Origin: an uncultured Acidobacteriota bacterium
GTDB taxonomy: Bacteria > Acidobacteriota > Blastocatellia > RBC074
Assembly (NCBI GenBank): GCA_963794955.1
Contig: CAWCGF010000003.1
Coordinates: 125,985 to 189,984, forward strand
Direction: 5' to 3'
DNA: 64,000 nt
Shown here: positions 48,794 to 58,728 of the stretch, piece by piece
How the letters are laid out: each line of letters starts with the position of its first letter
Position numbering within the stretch: the first letter of the stretch is position 1
Program-made: the position numbers and the translations under genes
Notes under the pieces: model-generated
Told to the model about the DNA's origin: nothing
What the model saw: only the letters and a program-made list of their open reading frames with translations
The model's database searches: none

Positions 48794-48812
48794 TTCTCAC
48801 TATAAAATTCTA

Positions 48813-48834
48813 AAATACCCAGTACTGGGTATTT
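48813..48834. other. Perfect 22-bp palindrome AAATACCCAGTACTGGGTATTT just after the response-regulator stop, at the left edge of the AT-rich island
   Basis: Terminator-like stem without a U-tract; alternatively a protein-binding site. Confidence 0.4.
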
Positions 48835-49183
48835 ACCCCAAAAAGCGTTTTCGATAGAGTGTCGTTGTCTTTTGATGTTCGTGAATCAGTAACAGCTTGC
48901 ATTTTTTCTGTTACCGATTCACCTGGAAGATAAGTATGCTTTGGCACTGCCTCTTTTGCCAGGCGATCACTCGGATGGGCTTCACCACTACTACCCCATT
49001 CTTGAGTAACATCCAAATTAATACGTAAGAGCCTTTATGGTTTGCGTAAGGGACGCACCACCAAAAGCGCTCAGCACGACGACAGAGGTACTCGTCTGTC
49101 TGAGCATTTGTGACTAAGGTTCCTAAAACTTTAAGAGCGTAGATAACGGCTTCCATGGTCGTTATCACAAGGAAAATTTCGGC

Positions 49184-49912
49184 ATGCAGTTCGTTCCGAA
49201 TAAGCTGATTGTAGGTCAGACCTGGACGCTAGTTATAAGCGGACTGATTAGCCTGTTTTTCATCCCCGTCACGCAGGCTGGCAATAAACAGAGCAATGGA
49301 TTGATAAAATTTGATTATGCAATAACAGAGGATGCCGACAGCTTATATCTTTCCGCTACGATTCATTCGGCGAATGCCAAGGCCTTTGCCACATCGGCGA
49401 TGATTGAAATTCTCGTCCCCAACGGAACAGGCATTAAGGTGGCTGATGCGGCTCCTATTAATATTAATCCAAATGATGCGACAAGTAGCAAACTTGTCTG
49501 GAGCAGCAAGTTGCCAAAGGACACAAAGATTCCTGCCAATTCATTGGTGAAAATTACAACCAATGTGGCCACAGTTGCGACCATCGCGCTGAAATACCAA
49601 GCCGCCTGCCGCTGGAGCGAAATGGAAGCAGGGTGGAAGGGGGAATGGCGGCGGCGGTTTCAAGACCCCGATACTTTTGATGCGATTTGGACCACCGCAG
49701 GTCAAAAACCGATTACTGCTGAACTAATCATTACGCGTAATGGCAATCAAATCAGCGTCAGTAAAAAAGAAGCTTCAGACGGATCTAACTGTGAATACAG
49801 CGGTGTTATACGCAACGGTGGCAGGACCGTAAAAGGAACCTACACCTGCAAACAAGGGAATCTTGGGCGGGAAACTGAATGGACGGCAACGATTGGTGTT
49901 CACTGCCAATAA
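49184..49912 (+). CDS. Secreted protein with a conserved ~105-aa four-cysteine C-terminal domain (copy A)
   Basis: A signal peptide is followed by the C-terminal domain CRWSEMEAGWKGEWRRRF...DAIWTTAGQKPITAELIITRNGNQISVSKKEASDGSNCEYSGVIRNGGRTVKGTYTCKQGN...EWTATIGVHCQ. The domain is shared with 50301..50816 and 52867..54444. Confidence 0.6.
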   Translation: MQFVPNKLIVGQTWTLVISGLISLFFIPVTQAGNKQSNGLIKFDYAITEDADSLYLSATIHSANAKAFATSAMIEILVPNGTGIKVADAAPININPNDATSSKLVWSSKLPKDTKIPANSLVKITTNVATVATIALKYQAACRWSEMEAGWKGEWRRRFQDPDTFDAIWTTAGQKPITAELIITRNGNQISVSKKEASDGSNCEYSGVIRNGGRTVKGTYTCKQGNLGRETEWTATIGVHCQ

Positions 49913-49928
49913 GAGCCAGGAGACATTT

Positions 49929-50150
49929 ATGATTAAAAATATGATGGTTAGGATTTTCGCCGGATTAGTGGCGGTTTCATTATTAGGCGTTGTTTCGTTT
50001 GCCCAGACTCAGCATATTTTCTATCGCGGAACCGACGGCAACATTAACCACATTTGGTATGACGGCACTATCCATCGTGACCAATGGACAGTAGCCGCCA
50101 AAGCGCCCCTTACCGCAGGTGATCCGGCAACGAAGGCGATGGGACATTAA
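49929..50150 (+). CDS. Small secreted protein (73 aa), paralog of 54538..54747
   Basis: The signal peptide is MIKNMMVRIFAGLVAVSLLGVVSFAQT. The mature part is QHIFYRGTDGNINHIWYDGTIHRDQWTVAAKAPLTAGDPATKAMGH, about 70% identical to the paralog. Confidence 0.5.
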   Translation: MIKNMMVRIFAGLVAVSLLGVVSFAQTQHIFYRGTDGNINHIWYDGTIHRDQWTVAAKAPLTAGDPATKAMGH

Positions 50151-50300
50151 CAGCAAAAATTCCGTAGCACCGAAAGAAGAAATCGTAAGGCCATTAGAGT
50201 AATTATTAGCTTGGCAGTTGCAATTACTGCTCACAACTTAACCTCACGGGTGCAGGCCGATCCCTACGATCTGCTCCGTTATACCAAAGGAAACCTCACA

Positions 50301-56349: not shown

Positions 56350-56479
56350 GCCGGCCTTATTTTCAGGTGGAGTCCTATCGCGGGATTTCACCATTAACCA
56401 ACTTTGAGTGGCACAACAATACAAGTATTACCACTCCACTCATCAACCAATCGCAGGTAAAACAATAGGGGCAAAGATT

Positions 56480-56845
56480 ATGAAAAAGACAATCCTTAAA
56501 GGTTTAGCCGTTTTGATGACAATGGCATTACTGACGCAAATTGCATTCCCTCAACATGAGCAACGTGTGACATTCCCTAATGGCATAATTGAAAGGAACT
56601 TCAAATTTAAGCTCGCCGCTAATGAAGGCATCAACTATGTCATCGCCCTGAAAAAGCAACAAGGTATTCACATCACTGTCACGACAACGAGTAAGAAGAT
56701 AACCATTCAATTTGAACATCAAAAAATAAAGGCTGGACAGGATTTCTTTTCAGAAATCACGAAGAATGGAGACCACGCCATCATGCTATGGAATGAAGGA
56801 ACGACTGCAGCCACGTTTGACATCAATATCGGTGTAGAAAAATAA
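56480..56845 (+). CDS. Small secreted protein with a divergent copy of the same domain
   Basis: A signal peptide is followed by VTFPNGIIERNFKFKLAANEGINYVIALKKQQGIHITV...HAIMLWNEGTTAATFDINIGVEK. Confidence 0.5.
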   Translation: MKKTILKGLAVLMTMALLTQIAFPQHEQRVTFPNGIIERNFKFKLAANEGINYVIALKKQQGIHITVTTTSKKITIQFEHQKIKAGQDFFSEITKNGDHAIMLWNEGTTAATFDINIGVEK

Positions 56846-57118
56846 CTTATAAGCCTTATGTTGAGCCTAAAGATTAGGGCTATGAATTTTACTTAGATGA
56901 AAATGGGGCTTTCAAAATGCGATGGACGTAAGCAACGCCCCGCCTACGCTTTTGATAAATGGAAAAGGCGAGATTGTCTGGAGCAAAAGTGGTTACGCAG
57001 CCGGAGATGAAGACGTGCCTTTTGCAAACGTGAAAAAGATTAAGAACGGAGAAAAGCCGACGAACTAAAGCCAGTAATTACCTTTAGACATCAAGGTTCA
57101 AGCGATAAAAGAGAACTT

Positions 57119-57856
57119 ATGCAGATCAAAACAAATCTAATGAGTAAGATATTAACTACTCTTGTAGTTGTCATAACACTAAATGTCATCGCACTAGCTC
57201 AAAATGCCAGGCGCATTGATTTTGCCAAAGAAGGCTCAAACGCGTTGGTGTGGGAACAAACAGTTGCCGCCAATAGCAGTAAATCGTTCGTCTTCTATGC
57301 GAAAAAAGGGCAAAAGCTAAGCTTGAGCATGATTGACGATACGAAACAAGGATCAATGGATTTGGGCAAAATCTCGATTGAACCGAATGCTGATCCATTT
57401 GAAATGGTTATTGAAGTTAGTAAAGATTATACGTTCAGCGTTTCCAACAACAGCAAGAAATCTACGAGTTTCCGCATTTTTATTACGTTGGAAGATGCTA
57501 AGTCGGCGGTCAAAACTTCAACCTCTGAAACAACCAGCCCAAACAGCGTAAGAGTTCAATTTGCCAGAGGTGAATCTTCGGTATCGTTGACAAAAACAAT
57601 TGCGGCGAACGGTTCGATTGATTTTCTGATTAACGCCAAAAAGGGGCAGACGATGAGTTATACCGTTGGTTACGATTTTAAAGACAGCGATGTCGAAGCT
57701 TTTCTGACTGAACCAGGGTTGCAAGACATCTCGCTTCAGTCAGGGCCAAAAGAACCGAAAGAATTTCGTATTAAGAAAAGCGGCGACCATCGTCTTACAG
57801 TGAATAATACAACCAGAAAAAAAATAACCATTACGCTCTATCTGGATATTAACTAA
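57119..57856 (+). CDS. Secreted protein with two tandem copies of the AKKGQ-motif domain
   Basis: A signal peptide is followed by repeat 1 (IDFAKEGSNALVWEQTVAANSSKSFVFYAKKGQKLSLSM...FRIFITLE) and repeat 2 (VQFARGESSVSLTKTIAANGSIDFLINAKKGQTMSYTV...ITITLYLDIN). Confidence 0.55.
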   Translation: MQIKTNLMSKILTTLVVVITLNVIALAQNARRIDFAKEGSNALVWEQTVAANSSKSFVFYAKKGQKLSLSMIDDTKQGSMDLGKISIEPNADPFEMVIEVSKDYTFSVSNNSKKSTSFRIFITLEDAKSAVKTSTSETTSPNSVRVQFARGESSVSLTKTIAANGSIDFLINAKKGQTMSYTVGYDFKDSDVEAFLTEPGLQDISLQSGPKEPKEFRIKKSGDHRLTVNNTTRKKITITLYLDIN

Positions 57857-57880
57857 ATGAGCTAAACCGGAGACAATCAA

Positions 57881-58627
57881 ATGAAGAAACTAATTACACT
57901 CACCATTAGTTTGGCTGTTATCAGCTTACTTGTTTATGCCCAACCTGCCTTTTGGCTGAGAATGCCGGGTAAAGCAACAGACATCAGCGTCGGCGCAAAT
58001 GGTACAGTCTGGGTTATTGGAGACGACTCTCAGGCGGGCGGTTCCAGTATCTTTCGGTGGGATAAAGCAACCAGCAAGTGGATTAAAGTACCGGGTAGTG
58101 CTACCAGAATTTCCGTTGATAGTGATGGGAACCCCTGGGTCGTCAATACCAATGCAAATATTTTCCGCTTTAATAACGGCAAGTGGGACAAATTGCCGGG
58201 TCTGGCCATGGATATTGCGGTCGGCGCAGATGACTCAATCTGGGTGATTGGTAAGGCCTCTCCTGCCGCTAATGGATATGCGTTTCGGTGGAACGGAGCG
58301 ACGTGGGAGAAGTCTGATGGTGTAGGCACGGAGATAGCAGTGGCAAAAGATGGGACTCCGTGGGTCATCAATATGAATCATGACATCTCCAGAAGAGTGA
58401 ATAATAAATGGGTCAAGGTTGGCAGCGATATGGTTGATGTGGGAACCAGTGCTGATGGTTCTGTGTGGGCCACCACGCTGGCAGATGAAATCGTTAGGTG
58501 GAATGGAACTGGTTGGGAAAAAGTAGCGGGGAAAGCGATCCGCATTGCGCCTGACCCACAAGGCAATCCGTGGGCGATCAACGCCAGCTTTGATATTTTT
58601 TCCCCGCATCCGAAATACCAAAATTAG
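57881..58627 (+). CDS. Secreted tectonin/tachylectin-like six-repeat lectin (paralog 2)
   Basis: It is about 85% nucleotide identical to 51978..52724 over its full length. Confidence 0.7.
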   Translation: MKKLITLTISLAVISLLVYAQPAFWLRMPGKATDISVGANGTVWVIGDDSQAGGSSIFRWDKATSKWIKVPGSATRISVDSDGNPWVVNTNANIFRFNNGKWDKLPGLAMDIAVGADDSIWVIGKASPAANGYAFRWNGATWEKSDGVGTEIAVAKDGTPWVINMNHDISRRVNNKWVKVGSDMVDVGTSADGSVWATTLADEIVRWNGTGWEKVAGKAIRIAPDPQGNPWAINASFDIFSPHPKYQN

Positions 58628-58728
58628 GATTCCGAGCTACTCACAACTAAGAGGAGGGCGGTAGCGACTGGATGGATAAGTTGAGGTTAACAAGTTGCTA
58701 TCGCACCTCGTACTGTAACAGATTCCAA

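What the first reader, a model, noticed from the sequence alone, without database searches (positions are those of the whole stretch)
48800..58700. ~10-kb AT-rich island of exclusively secreted proteins with a duplicated gene order (4-Cys-domain protein, small peptide, TolB-like propeller, tectonin-like lectin)
Base composition drops sharply from 48.8 to 58.7 kb, bounded by the NarL-type regulator and a Gfo/Idh/MocA gene. All 12 genes are on the plus strand and all carry signal peptides.

The gene order is repeated:
- Module 1: 49184..49912, 49929..50150, 50301..50816, 50909..51826, 51978..52724.
- Module 2: 52867..54444, 54538..54747, 54848..55765, then three inserted AKKGQ-domain genes, then 57881..58627.

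Paralog pairs are about 65-85% identical, so the duplication is old enough to have diverged but the order is kept. No integrase, transposase or tRNA marks the borders.

The combination of lectin-like propellers, a metalloprotease with RTX-like repeats, uncharacterised disulfide domains and small secreted peptides looks like an acquired extracellular toolkit (adhesion, glycan binding or antagonism). I cannot recognise the function from the sequence.
Basis: partly seen in the sequence, partly recalled or inferred. Interest (0 to 1): 0.7.

Follow-up and report, generated by a model that had tools for sequence, protein, structure and literature searches.

The report
Variable island: lectin propellers, PliG-like proteins
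A 14-kb stretch present in only some closely related soil Acidobacteria encodes a sugar-sensor-type signalling pair followed by twelve exported proteins: relatives of a bacterial lysozyme inhibitor, sugar-binding propeller proteins (two shrunk to a single blade) and an unknown small barrel domain; it most likely acts in outward-facing protection or glycan binding, but no function has been tested.

Summary
Window 48.8-58.7 kb is AT-rich (GC 0.445 vs 0.526; GC3 0.46 vs 0.58, p about 1e-6). It carries 12 plus-strand genes with signal-peptide-like N-termini and a duplicated gene order (pairs 65, 66 and 77% identical).

The interpretation needs four corrections.
- **Borders.** A close relative (92% identical flanking gene) joins IDH to the Gfo gene directly. 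The insertion/deletion is therefore 44.9-58.7 kb and includes the kinase and regulator.
- **"AKKGQ" genes.** They are not inserted. They are remote homologues of PliG, the periplasmic inhibitor of goose-type lysozyme. In three further acidobacterial contigs (one closely related) they sit next to an orthologous kinase/regulator pair, so they form the conserved core.
- **"Small peptides".** Each is exactly one blade of a PLL-type seven-bladed lectin. A close relative has an intact seven-blade gene at that position.
- **Which copy is extra.** Module 1 (g2-g5) is the extra, diverged copy.

The 4-Cys domain is a lineage-restricted eight-stranded, avidin-like barrel. The tectonin and TolB-like assignments hold.

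My best reading is a regulated, fast-turnover set of exported proteins that inhibit cell-wall hydrolases and bind glycans, sitting at a genomic hot spot. The function is inferred, not shown. Interest is moderate.

The parts
44924..58729 (.). Extent of the insertion/deletion relative to the close relative L001 (13.8 kb here, 752 bp there)
   Evidence: blastn: L001 8974-11388 matches window 61147-58730, and L001 12141-13679 matches window 44923-43384 (88% identity, the IDH gene). Nothing in between matches. The L001 filler holds a single 208-aa ORF.
45069..48158 (+). Sensor histidine kinase: periplasmic Reg_prop propellers and a Y_Y_Y domain, then HisKA_3 and HATPase_c
   Evidence: Pfam hits. 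The periplasmic part matches the sensor domains of Bacteroides hybrid two-component systems (4a2l/4a2m, 5.5e-58). GC3 is 0.48. Orthologues lie next to PliG-like genes in L091 (82% identity) and in L087 and L089 (43%).
48155..48793 (+). NarL/LuxR-type response regulator; its start overlaps the end of the kinase gene by 4 bases
   Evidence: Pfam Response_reg 7e-31 and GerE 8e-15. Orthologues: L081 87%, L091 86%, L087 and L089 43-45%.
49184..49912 (+). g1: exported protein with an N-terminal region of unknown kind and a C-terminal 4-Cys barrel domain
   Evidence: Orthologues are P0003 and P0004 and the L091 copy at 79%. It follows the regulator in L081 and L091 as well.
49929..50150 (+). g2: signal peptide plus exactly one PLL/DUF346 propeller blade (47-residue mature product)
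   Evidence: Pfam PF03984 2.7e-7. It aligns to each of the seven blades of PLL lectins. It carries residues specific to blade 7 of the L091 seven-blade gene.
50301..50816 (+). g3: exported stand-alone 4-Cys barrel protein
50909..51826 (+). g4: TolB-like (PD40) propeller, extra diverged copy
   Evidence: NCBIfam TolB 4.9e-12, far below the cut-off. Profile against PDB TolB: 6.9e-5. It is 66% identical to g8, and 61-63% to the L091 and L083 copies against 74-80% for g8.
51978..52724 (+). g5: tectonin-type six-bladed propeller lectin homologue, extra copy
   Evidence: Pfam Tectonin 2.5e-34. PDB 5fsb Tectonin 2: 3.7e-24. It is 77% identical to g12.
52867..54444 (+). g6: exported 525-aa protein with an HEIFHCLGF zinc-protease-like motif, Gly/Asp-rich RTX-like repeats and a C-terminal 4-Cys barrel
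   Evidence: Motif seen in the sequence. NCBIfam NF038122 4.6e-6 and RTX 1.3e-5, both far below their cut-offs. The barrel is 50% identical to that of g1.
54538..54747 (+). g7: signal peptide plus exactly one PLL/DUF346 blade (46-residue mature product)
   Evidence: Pfam PF03984 3.9e-5. It is the only product under 100 aa with a single matched blade among the best 150 hits in 1.84 billion representatives (P0059). Its N-terminal part is blade-1-like (TS) and its end matches blade 7 (…MLTGN) of the L091 gene.
54848..55765 (+). g8: TolB-like propeller, conserved copy
   Evidence: Identity is 80% to L083, 74% to L091 and 76% to L084. dN/dS against L083 is 0.17.
55819..56349 (+). g9: lipoprotein with a low-complexity linker and one PliG-like (AKKGQ) beta-sandwich domain
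   Evidence: Lipobox seen. It aligns with g10, g11 and E. coli PliG. Orthologues: L083 76%, L087 and L089 47-49%.
56480..56845 (+). g10: exported single PliG-like domain, the most diverged copy (an alternative GTG start lies at 56408)
   Evidence: Weak GOLD hit at 2e-4.
57119..57856 (+). g11: exported protein with two PliG-like domains
57881..58627 (+). g12: tectonin-type propeller lectin homologue, conserved copy
   Evidence: Pfam Tectonin 4.8e-29. Identity is 77% to the L005 and L083 copies and 64% to L091.

Best explanation
Window 44.9-58.7 kb is a strain-variable gene cluster lodged in a genomic hot spot of a Blastocatellia (Acidobacteriota) genome.

**The conserved core.**
- A sensor kinase whose periplasmic part is of the type that binds oligosaccharides in Bacteroides hybrid two-component systems.
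- A NarL-type regulator.
- Several Sec-exported proteins (g9-g11) built from a beta-sandwich domain remotely homologous to PliG, the periplasmic inhibitor of goose-type lysozyme.

**What this lineage added.**
- Exported beta-propellers: a tectonin-type lectin, a TolB-like propeller and a PLL-type fucose/O-methyl-sugar lectin.
- A lineage-specific disulfide-bonded eight-stranded barrel.
- One metalloprotease-like protein.
- Part of the set was then tandemly duplicated (g2-g5 are the extra copy).
- Both PLL-type lectin genes were reduced from seven blades to one.

**Proposed mechanism (inferred).** The kinase senses a glycan cue at the envelope, and the regulator switches on the co-directional genes downstream. 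The PliG-like proteins bind and block peptidoglycan-cleaving enzymes of grazers or competitors. The propeller lectins bind foreign or self glycans at the cell surface.

**Shown:** the homologies, the gene order, the conserved linkage of the kinase/regulator pair with the PliG-like genes, the presence/absence polymorphism, and purifying selection.

**Inferred:** export, regulation, the targets, and any protective role.
For: **Island status.**
- The block is absent in L001 and L006 and present in L005 and L091/L092. It sits in another context in L083.
- Five different contents lie next to the Gfo gene in relatives.
- GC3 and codon usage deviate from the rest of the window.

**PliG link.**
- A profile of 54 g11 homologues hits E. 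coli, Aeromonas and Salmonella PliG at 5e-5 to 5e-4, and nothing else in the PDB below 0.3.
- E. coli PliG itself carries 'FYAKKGQK'.

**Conserved linkage.** The order kinase, regulator, PliG-like genes recurs in L087, L089/L090 and L091, at 43-82% kinase identity. That is 4 of 8 independent contexts.

**Sensor type.** The kinase matches 4a2l/4a2m at 5.5e-58.

**Lectins.** Tectonin and PLL blades. In PLL lectins the sugar sites lie between blades, and the ligands are fucose and O-methylated sugars (PMC6943638).

**Genes under constraint.** dN/dS is 0.13-0.19 between the window and L083 orthologues, and 0.13-0.14 for g4/g8 and g5/g12.

**Established knowledge.** PliG protects E. coli against g-type lysozyme (PMC10609593, PMC3458809). 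One review-style passage calls the T6SS immunity protein Tsi3 'PliG-type' (PMC5507604).
Against: - The PliG relationship is remote. g9-g11 do not hit Pfam PPC (PF04151), which does recognise E. coli PliG.
- The fold is a common sandwich: GOLD, PPC, collagen-binding and CUB domains score about as well structurally.
- I could not check whether PliG's lysozyme-contacting residues are kept.
- Goose-type lysozymes are animal enzymes, and no target enzyme is known for a soil acidobacterium.
- Nothing links the propellers mechanistically to the PliG-like core. They co-occur only in this lineage.
- Half of the g11-family contexts lack the kinase/regulator pair (L083, L085, L093, L094).
- No promoter, operator or expression data exist. 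The sigma-70 scan found fewer sites than in shuffled sequence.
- Pseudogenes and collapsed genes (the L083 4-Cys gene, g2, g7) show that parts of the cluster are decaying.
Confidence: 0.4

Rival explanations
1. Extracellular glycan-binding and adhesion toolkit. The lectin propellers are the point of the island. They cross-link the cell's own exopolysaccharide or attach it to surfaces or other organisms. The sandwich domains are carbohydrate- or protein-binding modules of the PPC type, not enzyme inhibitors.
For: - Tectonin and PLL homology.
- The PliG-like fold is equally close to collagen-binding/PPC and CUB domains.
- E. coli PliG itself falls in Pfam PPC.
- The kinase is of a glycan-sensor type.
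Against: - Both PLL-type genes here are cut down to one blade, and sugar sites in that family need two adjacent blades (PMC6943638).
- The part conserved across Acidobacteria is the sandwich proteins with the two-component pair, without any lectin.
- By sequence profile, only PliG chains are hit among the many PPC-containing PDB entries.
Confidence: 0.2
2. Array of orphan periplasmic immunity proteins against cell-wall-targeting toxins of competing bacteria, analogous to acquired interbacterial defence islands. Each small exported protein would neutralise one incoming effector.
For: - All products carry export signals, and most are small single-domain proteins.
- The set is variable between close relatives, duplicated and partly pseudogenised.
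- Composition is atypical.
- The T6SS immunity protein Tsi3 has been described as PliG-type (PMC5507604).
Against: - No effector, secretion-system, integrase or recombinase gene lies in or next to the block.
- A 525-aa protease-like protein and lectin families are not typical immunity proteins.
- A dedicated sensor kinase/regulator pair is unusual for such arrays.
- No PADLOC hits, although that library covers phage defence only.
Confidence: 0.15
3. The PliG-like proteins are periplasmic accessory partners of the sensor kinase (ligand presenters or feedback modulators). The propellers, barrels and protease are unrelated cargo that accumulated at a recombination hot spot.
For: - Tight, conserved linkage of kinase, regulator and two or three sandwich proteins, followed by a stand-alone receiver gene in L087 and L089.
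- The site next to the Gfo gene holds unrelated DNA in every relative examined.
Against: - g11 homologues also occur without any two-component genes (L083, L085, L093, L094).
- g11 is far better conserved (65-73%) than the kinase (43%) in L087 and L089.
- TolB-like, PliG-like and tectonin genes travel together in L083, away from the kinase.
Confidence: 0.12
4. Largely decaying, functionless DNA: leftovers of duplicated and transferred genes on their way out.
For: - g2 and g7 are collapsed to one blade.
- The 4-Cys gene is pseudogenised in L083.
- The block is missing from close relatives.
Against: - All 12 ORFs are intact.
- dN/dS is 0.13-0.19 for the larger genes between genomes and between paralogues.
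- The g11 family has 144 members at up to 83% identity.
Confidence: 0.05

Closest known systems
PliG (E. coli YcgK and relatives), periplasmic inhibitor of goose-type lysozyme; structures 4dy3, 4dzg, 4dy5, complex 4g9s
   Same: - Exported stand-alone beta-sandwich of about 100-110 residues.
- Profile-level sequence similarity over the whole domain (5e-5), including the 'AKKGQ' turn and an 'SG-x-aromatic/His' strand.
- Best single-domain structural match at 22-23% identity.
   Different: - Remote: no hit to Pfam PF04151, which recognises E. coli PliG.
- Present as three genes and four domains, including a two-domain protein (three domains in relatives) and a lipoprotein with a long linker.
- Linked to a two-component system rather than to Zur control as in E. 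coli (PMC4219657).
- The host is a free-living soil acidobacterium.
- Inhibitory activity is untested.
PLL-family seven-bladed propeller lectins of Photorhabdus (PLL, PLL2, PLL3, PHL); Pfam DUF346
   Same: The repeat 'QHIFYRG-DG-INHIW…DQWT…AP…GDP' of g2 and g7 aligns to every blade of PLL. A seven-blade orthologue lies at the same position in relative L091.
   Different: - g2 and g7 have one blade only, so the inter-blade sugar sites of the family (PMC6943638) cannot form in a monomer.
- They carry Sec signal peptides.
Tectonin 2 of Laccaria bicolor (5fsb) and the tectonin / fish-egg lectin family
   Same: Six-repeat propeller of the same length. E 3.7e-24 to the solved structure and Pfam Tectonin well above threshold.
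   Different: Bacterial, exported and present in two copies. Sugar specificity is unknown; O-methylated glycans are the fungal protein's ligand (general knowledge, PMC5238581).
Oligomeric propellers built from short chains (Ralstonia RSL two-blade trimers; engineered one- to five-blade WD40 and tachylectin fragments)
   Same: A one-blade chain could only give a propeller by self-assembly. That is the intermediate postulated for propeller evolution (PMC6805158, PMC9218822).
   Different: Here the one-blade genes appear to derive by reduction from a seven-blade gene, not the reverse. Isolated WD40 blades did not fold (PMC6805158). No evidence of assembly exists for g2 or g7.
Acquired interbacterial defence (orphan immunity gene) islands
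   Same: A variable, compositionally odd array of small exported proteins with duplicates and pseudogenes.
   Different: No mobile-element genes and no cognate effectors. It includes lectin families, a protease-like protein and its own sensor/regulator pair.

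Membership tests
PliG lysozyme-inhibitor family | Significant sequence similarity to characterised PliG proteins over the whole domain | tested here: met
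   A profile of 54 homologues scores against PDB chains 4dy3 (5.4e-5), 4dzg (8.5e-5), 4dxz (9.1e-5) and 4dy5 (5.3e-4). The next hit is at 0.37. Pairwise BLASTP of g11 domain 2 against PliG-Ec gives 25% over 110 residues, E 1.9e-6 against a single subject. The relationship is remote.
PliG lysozyme-inhibitor family | Recognised by the curated model that recognises E. coli PliG (Pfam PF04151, PPC) | tested here: not met
   E. coli PliG scores 8.6e-11. The four island domains give no PF04151 hit at E<=1.
PliG lysozyme-inhibitor family | Same fold as solved PliG structures | tested here: met
PliG lysozyme-inhibitor family | Exported to the periplasm as a small stand-alone protein | tested here: inconclusive
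   Signal-peptide-like N-termini and one lipobox, by inspection and hydropathy only. g11 has two domains.
PliG lysozyme-inhibitor family | Conserved surface loop/motif that enters the lysozyme cleft (SxSGAxY-type region, per PMC5507604) | tested here: inconclusive
   Aligned to PliG-Ec 'PASGKYEL' are g9 'ASGEWAI', g11-D2 'KSGDHRL', g10 'KNGDHAI' and g11-D1 'VSKDYTF'. The motif is partly kept. The contact residues of the 4g9s complex were not available to me.
PliG lysozyme-inhibitor family | Inhibits goose-type lysozyme | not testable with these tools
   Needs purified protein and enzyme assays.
PLL / DUF346 seven-bladed propeller lectins | DUF346 repeat sequence | tested here: met
   PF03984 above threshold for g2 (30.7 bits) and g7 (23.8 bits; cut-off 22). 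A blade profile finds 703 proteins, almost all with 6-8 repeats.
PLL / DUF346 seven-bladed propeller lectins | Seven tandem blades in one chain forming a closed propeller with inter-blade sugar sites | tested here: not met
   g2 and g7 encode one blade each. No further blades lie elsewhere in the window. The orthologous gene in L091 has seven.
Tectonin propeller lectins | Tectonin repeats filling a six-bladed propeller of about 220 residues | tested here: met
   Pfam PF19193: 119 and 102 bits (cut-off 30). 5fsb: 3.7e-24 over residues 24-207. Sugar binding was not tested.
TolB (Tol-Pal system) | Full-length TolB: N-terminal alpha/beta domain plus propeller, scoring above the equivalog cut-off, in a tol-pal operon | tested here: not met
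   TIGR02800 scores 45.5 bits against a cut-off of 343 and covers only part of the propeller. There are no tol/pal neighbours. 'TolB-like' describes the PD40 propeller only.
Genomic island (horizontally acquired block) | Present/absent between close relatives at a defined site | tested here: met
   L001 (Gfo 92% identical) joins IDH to Gfo across 752 bp. The window has 13.8 kb there.
Genomic island (horizontally acquired block) | Atypical composition and codon usage | tested here: met
   GC3 0.46 against 0.58, p 9e-7. Codon distance lies outside the range of 500 background resamplings. The same holds for the L083 copy.
Genomic island (horizontally acquired block) | Mobility genes, tRNA target or flanking repeats | tested here: not met
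   No tRNA, no integrase or transposase families and no flanking repeats.
NF038122 'LGF' metalloprotease / RTX proteins (g6) | Score above the family cut-off; HExxH zinc site | tested here: inconclusive
   The HEIFHCLGF motif is present. NF038122 scores 26.9 bits against a cut-off of 80, and RTX_toxin 23.7 against 1000. No PDB relative of the protease part was found.

The most novel reading that the evidence does not exclude
g2 and g7 are functional, naturally occurring one-blade proteins. After export, the 46-47-residue chains would self-assemble into a homo-oligomeric (for example heptameric) PLL-type propeller lectin. That would be a living example of the single-blade stage postulated for propeller evolution, here reached by reduction from a seven-blade gene.

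My evidence does not exclude this:
- Both ORFs are intact, with signal peptide and all four strands.
- Each has some purine-rich sequence upstream (AGGAG for g2, a weaker GAGAG for g7).
- They differ at 35% of residues, with dN/dS of 0.26.
Probability: 0.15. Interest if true: 0.8.

Novelty: new variant of a known kind. Interest (0 to 1): 0.45.

Why it matters
- **A large unnamed family gets a hypothesis.** The g11 family has at least 144 members, and none carries an informative name. The link to PliG gives it a testable function. PliG-type inhibitors are known from enterobacteria and Aeromonas, in animal-associated settings. A set of them in soil Acidobacteria, linked to a two-component system, would extend proteinaceous muramidase inhibition to free-living bacteria. 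It would also point to pressure from grazers or competitors.
- **A natural series for propeller evolution.** The locus offers a seven-blade lectin gene in one strain and one-blade genes at the same position in another. This is the material that work on propeller evolution has had to engineer.
- **A new small domain.** The 4-Cys barrel was found nowhere outside this lineage.
- **A tractable hot spot.** The site next to the Gfo gene, together with a Septu insertion splitting purE from purK nearby, could serve studies of gene flux in uncultured Blastocatellia.

Tried and rejected
- **Exact-sequence look-ups.** Look-ups of g5 and g2 in the contig collection found nothing.
- **Word-indexed homologue search with g2.** It returned only g2 itself. 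The exhaustive profile search was needed. It lists only the best 150 of 703 hits, so diverged single-blade proteins elsewhere could not be counted.
- **Metagenome scan with g6.** It found nothing. The second scan, with g4+g8, gave one locus, L083.
- **AlphaFold-database fold search.** The library was not available.
- **Promoter and terminator scan.** It was uninformative: fewer promoter-like sites than in shuffles, and one plausible hairpin after g5 at 52742-52757.
- **dN/dS of g2/g7 as proof of constraint on the one-blade form.** I rejected this as decisive. The two may have collapsed independently from seven-blade paralogues, so most of their divergence could predate the collapse.
- **g6-like gene after g1 in L081/L082.** This reading rests on only 8-10 matching residues (ITPQYD) at the contig ends, so I treat it as tentative.

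Full report
- GC falls to 0.40-0.46 between 49 and 58 kb, against about 0.50-0.57 elsewhere. The region averages 0.445 against 0.526.
- The 12 plus-strand ORFs are at the stated coordinates.
- Third-position GC averages 0.461, against 0.583 ± 0.037 in 31 other long ORFs (Mann-Whitney p = 9e-7).
- Pooled synonymous-codon usage differs more (0.865) than any of 500 random background subsets (maximum 0.689). The shift is therefore not just the amino-acid make-up of secreted proteins.
- All 12 N-termini show basic residues followed by a hydrophobic core, and g9 has a lipobox. This is a heuristic only.
- Paralogue identities are g2/g7 65%, g4/g8 66% and g5/g12 77%. The shared 4-Cys domain is only 34-50% identical.
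- The DNA repeats are confined to coding sequence, with start-to-start spacings of 4597, 3939 and 5903 bp.
- There is no tRNA, no Rfam family, no integrase or transposase, and no flanking repeat.

**2. Where it comes from.** The flanking Gfo/Idh/MocA gene is 91-92% identical to genes in two Blastocatellia metagenome-assembled genomes, and 66-69% to others. The window is from an uncultured Blastocatellia (Acidobacteriota) genome.

**3. True extent of the island.**
- In L001 (Gfo 92%, ADH 92%), the Gfo gene is followed after 752 bp (one 208-aa ORF) by the isocitrate dehydrogenase gene and purE. These match window 43384-44923 and 43055-43236.
- The window therefore has 13.8 kb (44924-58729) where L001 has 0.75 kb. 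The block includes the kinase (GC3 0.48) and the regulator.
- In L006 (Gfo 68%), Gfo, purE and purK are directly adjacent.
- L005 (Gfo 86%) has g11- and g12-like genes next to Gfo, as here.
- L091/L092 (kinase 82%, regulator 86%, ADH 92%) carry a one-module version in the same neighbourhood.
- L081 has regulator then g1, with 80% DNA identity across the intergenic region.
- L002, L003 and L004 each have different, unrelated genes at the site.
- L083, on a 640-kb contig with unrelated flanks, carries a 4-Cys pseudogene, then TolB-like, then PliG-like genes, then tectonin. It is again a low-GC patch, 0.40-0.47 against 0.48-0.53.
- The block is thus a variable island at a hot spot, and its low GC travels with it. 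No mobility gene explains how it moves.

**4. What the genes are.**

(a) *g5 and g12* are tectonin-type propellers. Pfam gives 2.5e-34 and 4.8e-29, and g5 matches Laccaria Tectonin 2 (5fsb) at 3.7e-24.

(b) *g4 and g8* are PD40 propellers that resemble only the propeller part of TolB. They are sub-threshold and are not TolB.

(c) *g9, g10 and g11* (the 'AKKGQ' domain) are remote PliG homologues.
- g11 has 144 homologues, mostly from Acidobacteria where named, and none with an informative name.
- An AlphaFold2 model built on 54 of them (pLDDT 88) shows two beta-sandwiches.
- A sequence profile of the family hits E. coli, Aeromonas and Salmonella PliG at 5e-5 to 5e-4, and nothing else in the PDB below 0.3.
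- E. coli PliG carries the very 'FYAKKGQK' string.
- Caveat: Pfam files E. coli PliG under PPC (PF04151, 8.6e-11), and the island domains do not reach that model. The relationship is remote and the fold is widespread.

(d) *g2 and g7.*
- Each is one DUF346 repeat after a signal peptide, and each aligns to all seven blades of Photorhabdus PLL lectins.
- A blade profile searched against 1.84 billion representative proteins finds 703 proteins, nearly all with six to eight repeats. Among the 150 listed, the only product under 100 aa with a single matched blade is g7 itself.
- In L091 the gene at g7's position is an intact 367-aa seven-blade lectin. It has the same signal peptide (…SVISFAQTEHVFYRG) and the same end (…MLTGN). 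The L084 fragment shows the same.
- g2 carries blade-7-specific residues. g7 carries blade-1-specific residues and the blade-7 terminus. The two may therefore have collapsed independently by recombination between repeats.
- No other blades remain in the window.
- In the PLL family the sugar sites lie between adjacent blades (PMC6943638), so a monomeric blade cannot bind sugar.

(e) *The 4-Cys domain* (in g1, g3 and g6).
- Its only relatives in 5.8 billion proteins are orthologues of g1.
- Its function is unknown.

(f) *g6* has an HEIFHCLGF motif and Gly/Asp-rich repeats. It gives only sub-threshold family hits.

**5. The conserved core.**
- In two distant acidobacterial contigs (L087, L089/L090), orthologues of the kinase (43%) and regulator (43-45%) are followed by two or three PliG-like genes (g11-like 65-73%, g9-like 47-49%) and a stand-alone receiver gene. 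There are no propellers.
- L091 shows the same linkage. In all, 4 of 8 independent contexts of the g11 family have it.
- The kinase's periplasmic part matches the sensor domains of Bacteroides hybrid two-component systems (4a2l/4a2m, 5.5e-58). From general knowledge, those domains bind oligosaccharides.
- The AKKGQ genes are therefore not an insertion into module 2. Together with the two-component pair, they are the oldest part.
- TolB-like and tectonin genes accompany them only in this lineage (window, L005, L083, L091).

**6. History of the duplication.**
- g8 and g12 are closer to the L083 and L091 copies (74-80% and 64-77%) than g4 and g5 are (61-63% and 61-71%).
- In L081/L082, g1 seems to be followed directly by a g6-like gene. 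This is tentative, resting on 8-10 residues.
- Module 2 is therefore the ancestral copy. g2-g5 is an extra, diverged copy placed between g1 and g6.
- The larger genes are under purifying selection: dN/dS 0.13-0.19.
- The cluster also shows decay: the L083 4-Cys pseudogene and the one-blade genes.

**7. Mechanism.**
- I favour, at confidence 0.4, a regulated set of exported proteins that protect or arm the cell surface. A glycan cue is sensed by the kinase. The regulator turns on the co-directional genes.
- PliG-like proteins block peptidoglycan-cleaving enzymes, as PliG does for g-type lysozyme (PMC10609593, PMC3458809). A review-style passage also describes the T6SS immunity protein Tsi3 as PliG-type (PMC5507604).
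- The tectonin and, in relatives, PLL-type lectins bind fucosylated or O-methylated glycans. Such glycans occur on nematodes, fungi and bacteria (PMC6943638).
- Homology, linkage, variability and selection are shown. Export, regulation, targets and benefit are inferred.
- The rivals are a pure adhesion/lectin toolkit, an orphan-immunity array, sensor accessory proteins plus unrelated cargo, and junk. They are weighed in the rival-explanations section of this report.

**8. Novelty.**
- Every recognisable part belongs to a known family.
- Four things are new: the combination; the PliG-like expansion tied to a two-component system in a soil phylum; the lineage-only barrel; and the natural seven-to-one blade series.
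- I class it as a new variant of known kinds, of moderate interest.
- The boldest reading left open is that the one-blade products assemble into a working propeller. It would interest people who study propeller origins, since single WD40 blades did not fold in vitro (PMC6805158) and amplification from single blades is inferred from sequences (PMC9218822). The evidence here points rather to recent reduction.

Noticed in passing
window 40863-42751 (minus strand): A Septu anti-phage pair sits between purK (39736-40866) and purE (42760-43257): PtuA at 41444-42751 (PADLOC 3.7e-128) and PtuB, an HNH protein, at 40863-41447 (7e-68). Its GC3 is 0.36-0.41. In relative L006, purE and purK are adjacent, so this is a second, separate insertion in the window.
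   Followed up: partly
window ~58628-58729 and the matching site in L001-L005: The DNA just past the 3' end of the Gfo/Idh/MocA gene differs in every relative examined. The window and L005 have the island. L001 has one 208-aa ORF and then IDH. L002 has FG-GAP/ASPIC, TPR and TonB-like genes. L003 has three small ORFs. L004 has a 161-aa exported ORF. This looks like a recombination or insertion hot spot.
   Followed up: partly
L091 6486-7589: An intact 367-aa seven-bladed PLL/DUF346 lectin with a signal peptide lies at the position of g7. Its blades are 46-74% identical to one another. The L084 fragment carries the same C-terminal blades upstream of a g8-like gene.
   Followed up: yes
window 50151-50174: The eight codons after the g2 stop read QQKFRSTE. 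This faintly resembles the start of a further blade (QQHIFYRG) and may be a vestige of a longer gene.
   Followed up: no
L083 9502-9942: The g3-like 4-Cys gene has in-frame stop codons (…GDCV*QETEIGWEG…), so it is a pseudogene or carries assembly errors. The same locus has two extra exported proteins absent from the window: a 179-aa lipoprotein (12276-12815) and a 166-aa protein with a 'LKAGQ' domain (14592-15092).
   Followed up: partly
L091 4765-6282: A 505-aa protein with N-terminal AQQDV repeats lies between the g1 orthologue and the seven-blade lectin. It has no relative in the window and no Pfam hit on record.
   Followed up: no
L087 9698-10054; L089 9304-9684: In both distant loci, a stand-alone receiver-domain gene follows the PliG-like genes downstream of the kinase/regulator pair. 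The window has no such gene.
   Followed up: no
E. coli PliG sequence (PDB 4dy3) versus Pfam: E. coli PliG scores as a PPC domain (PF04151, 8.6e-11). NCBIfam has no model that hits it. The lysozyme inhibitor is therefore filed under a generic pre-peptidase domain, which hides relatives such as g9-g11.
   Followed up: yes
window 24336-27706 and 61242-61648 versus L001/L002: In L001 and L002, DNA matching window 24.3-26.8 kb lies directly next to the thioesterase gene (window 61.2-61.6 kb). At least one large rearrangement therefore separates these close relatives from the window genome.
   Followed up: no
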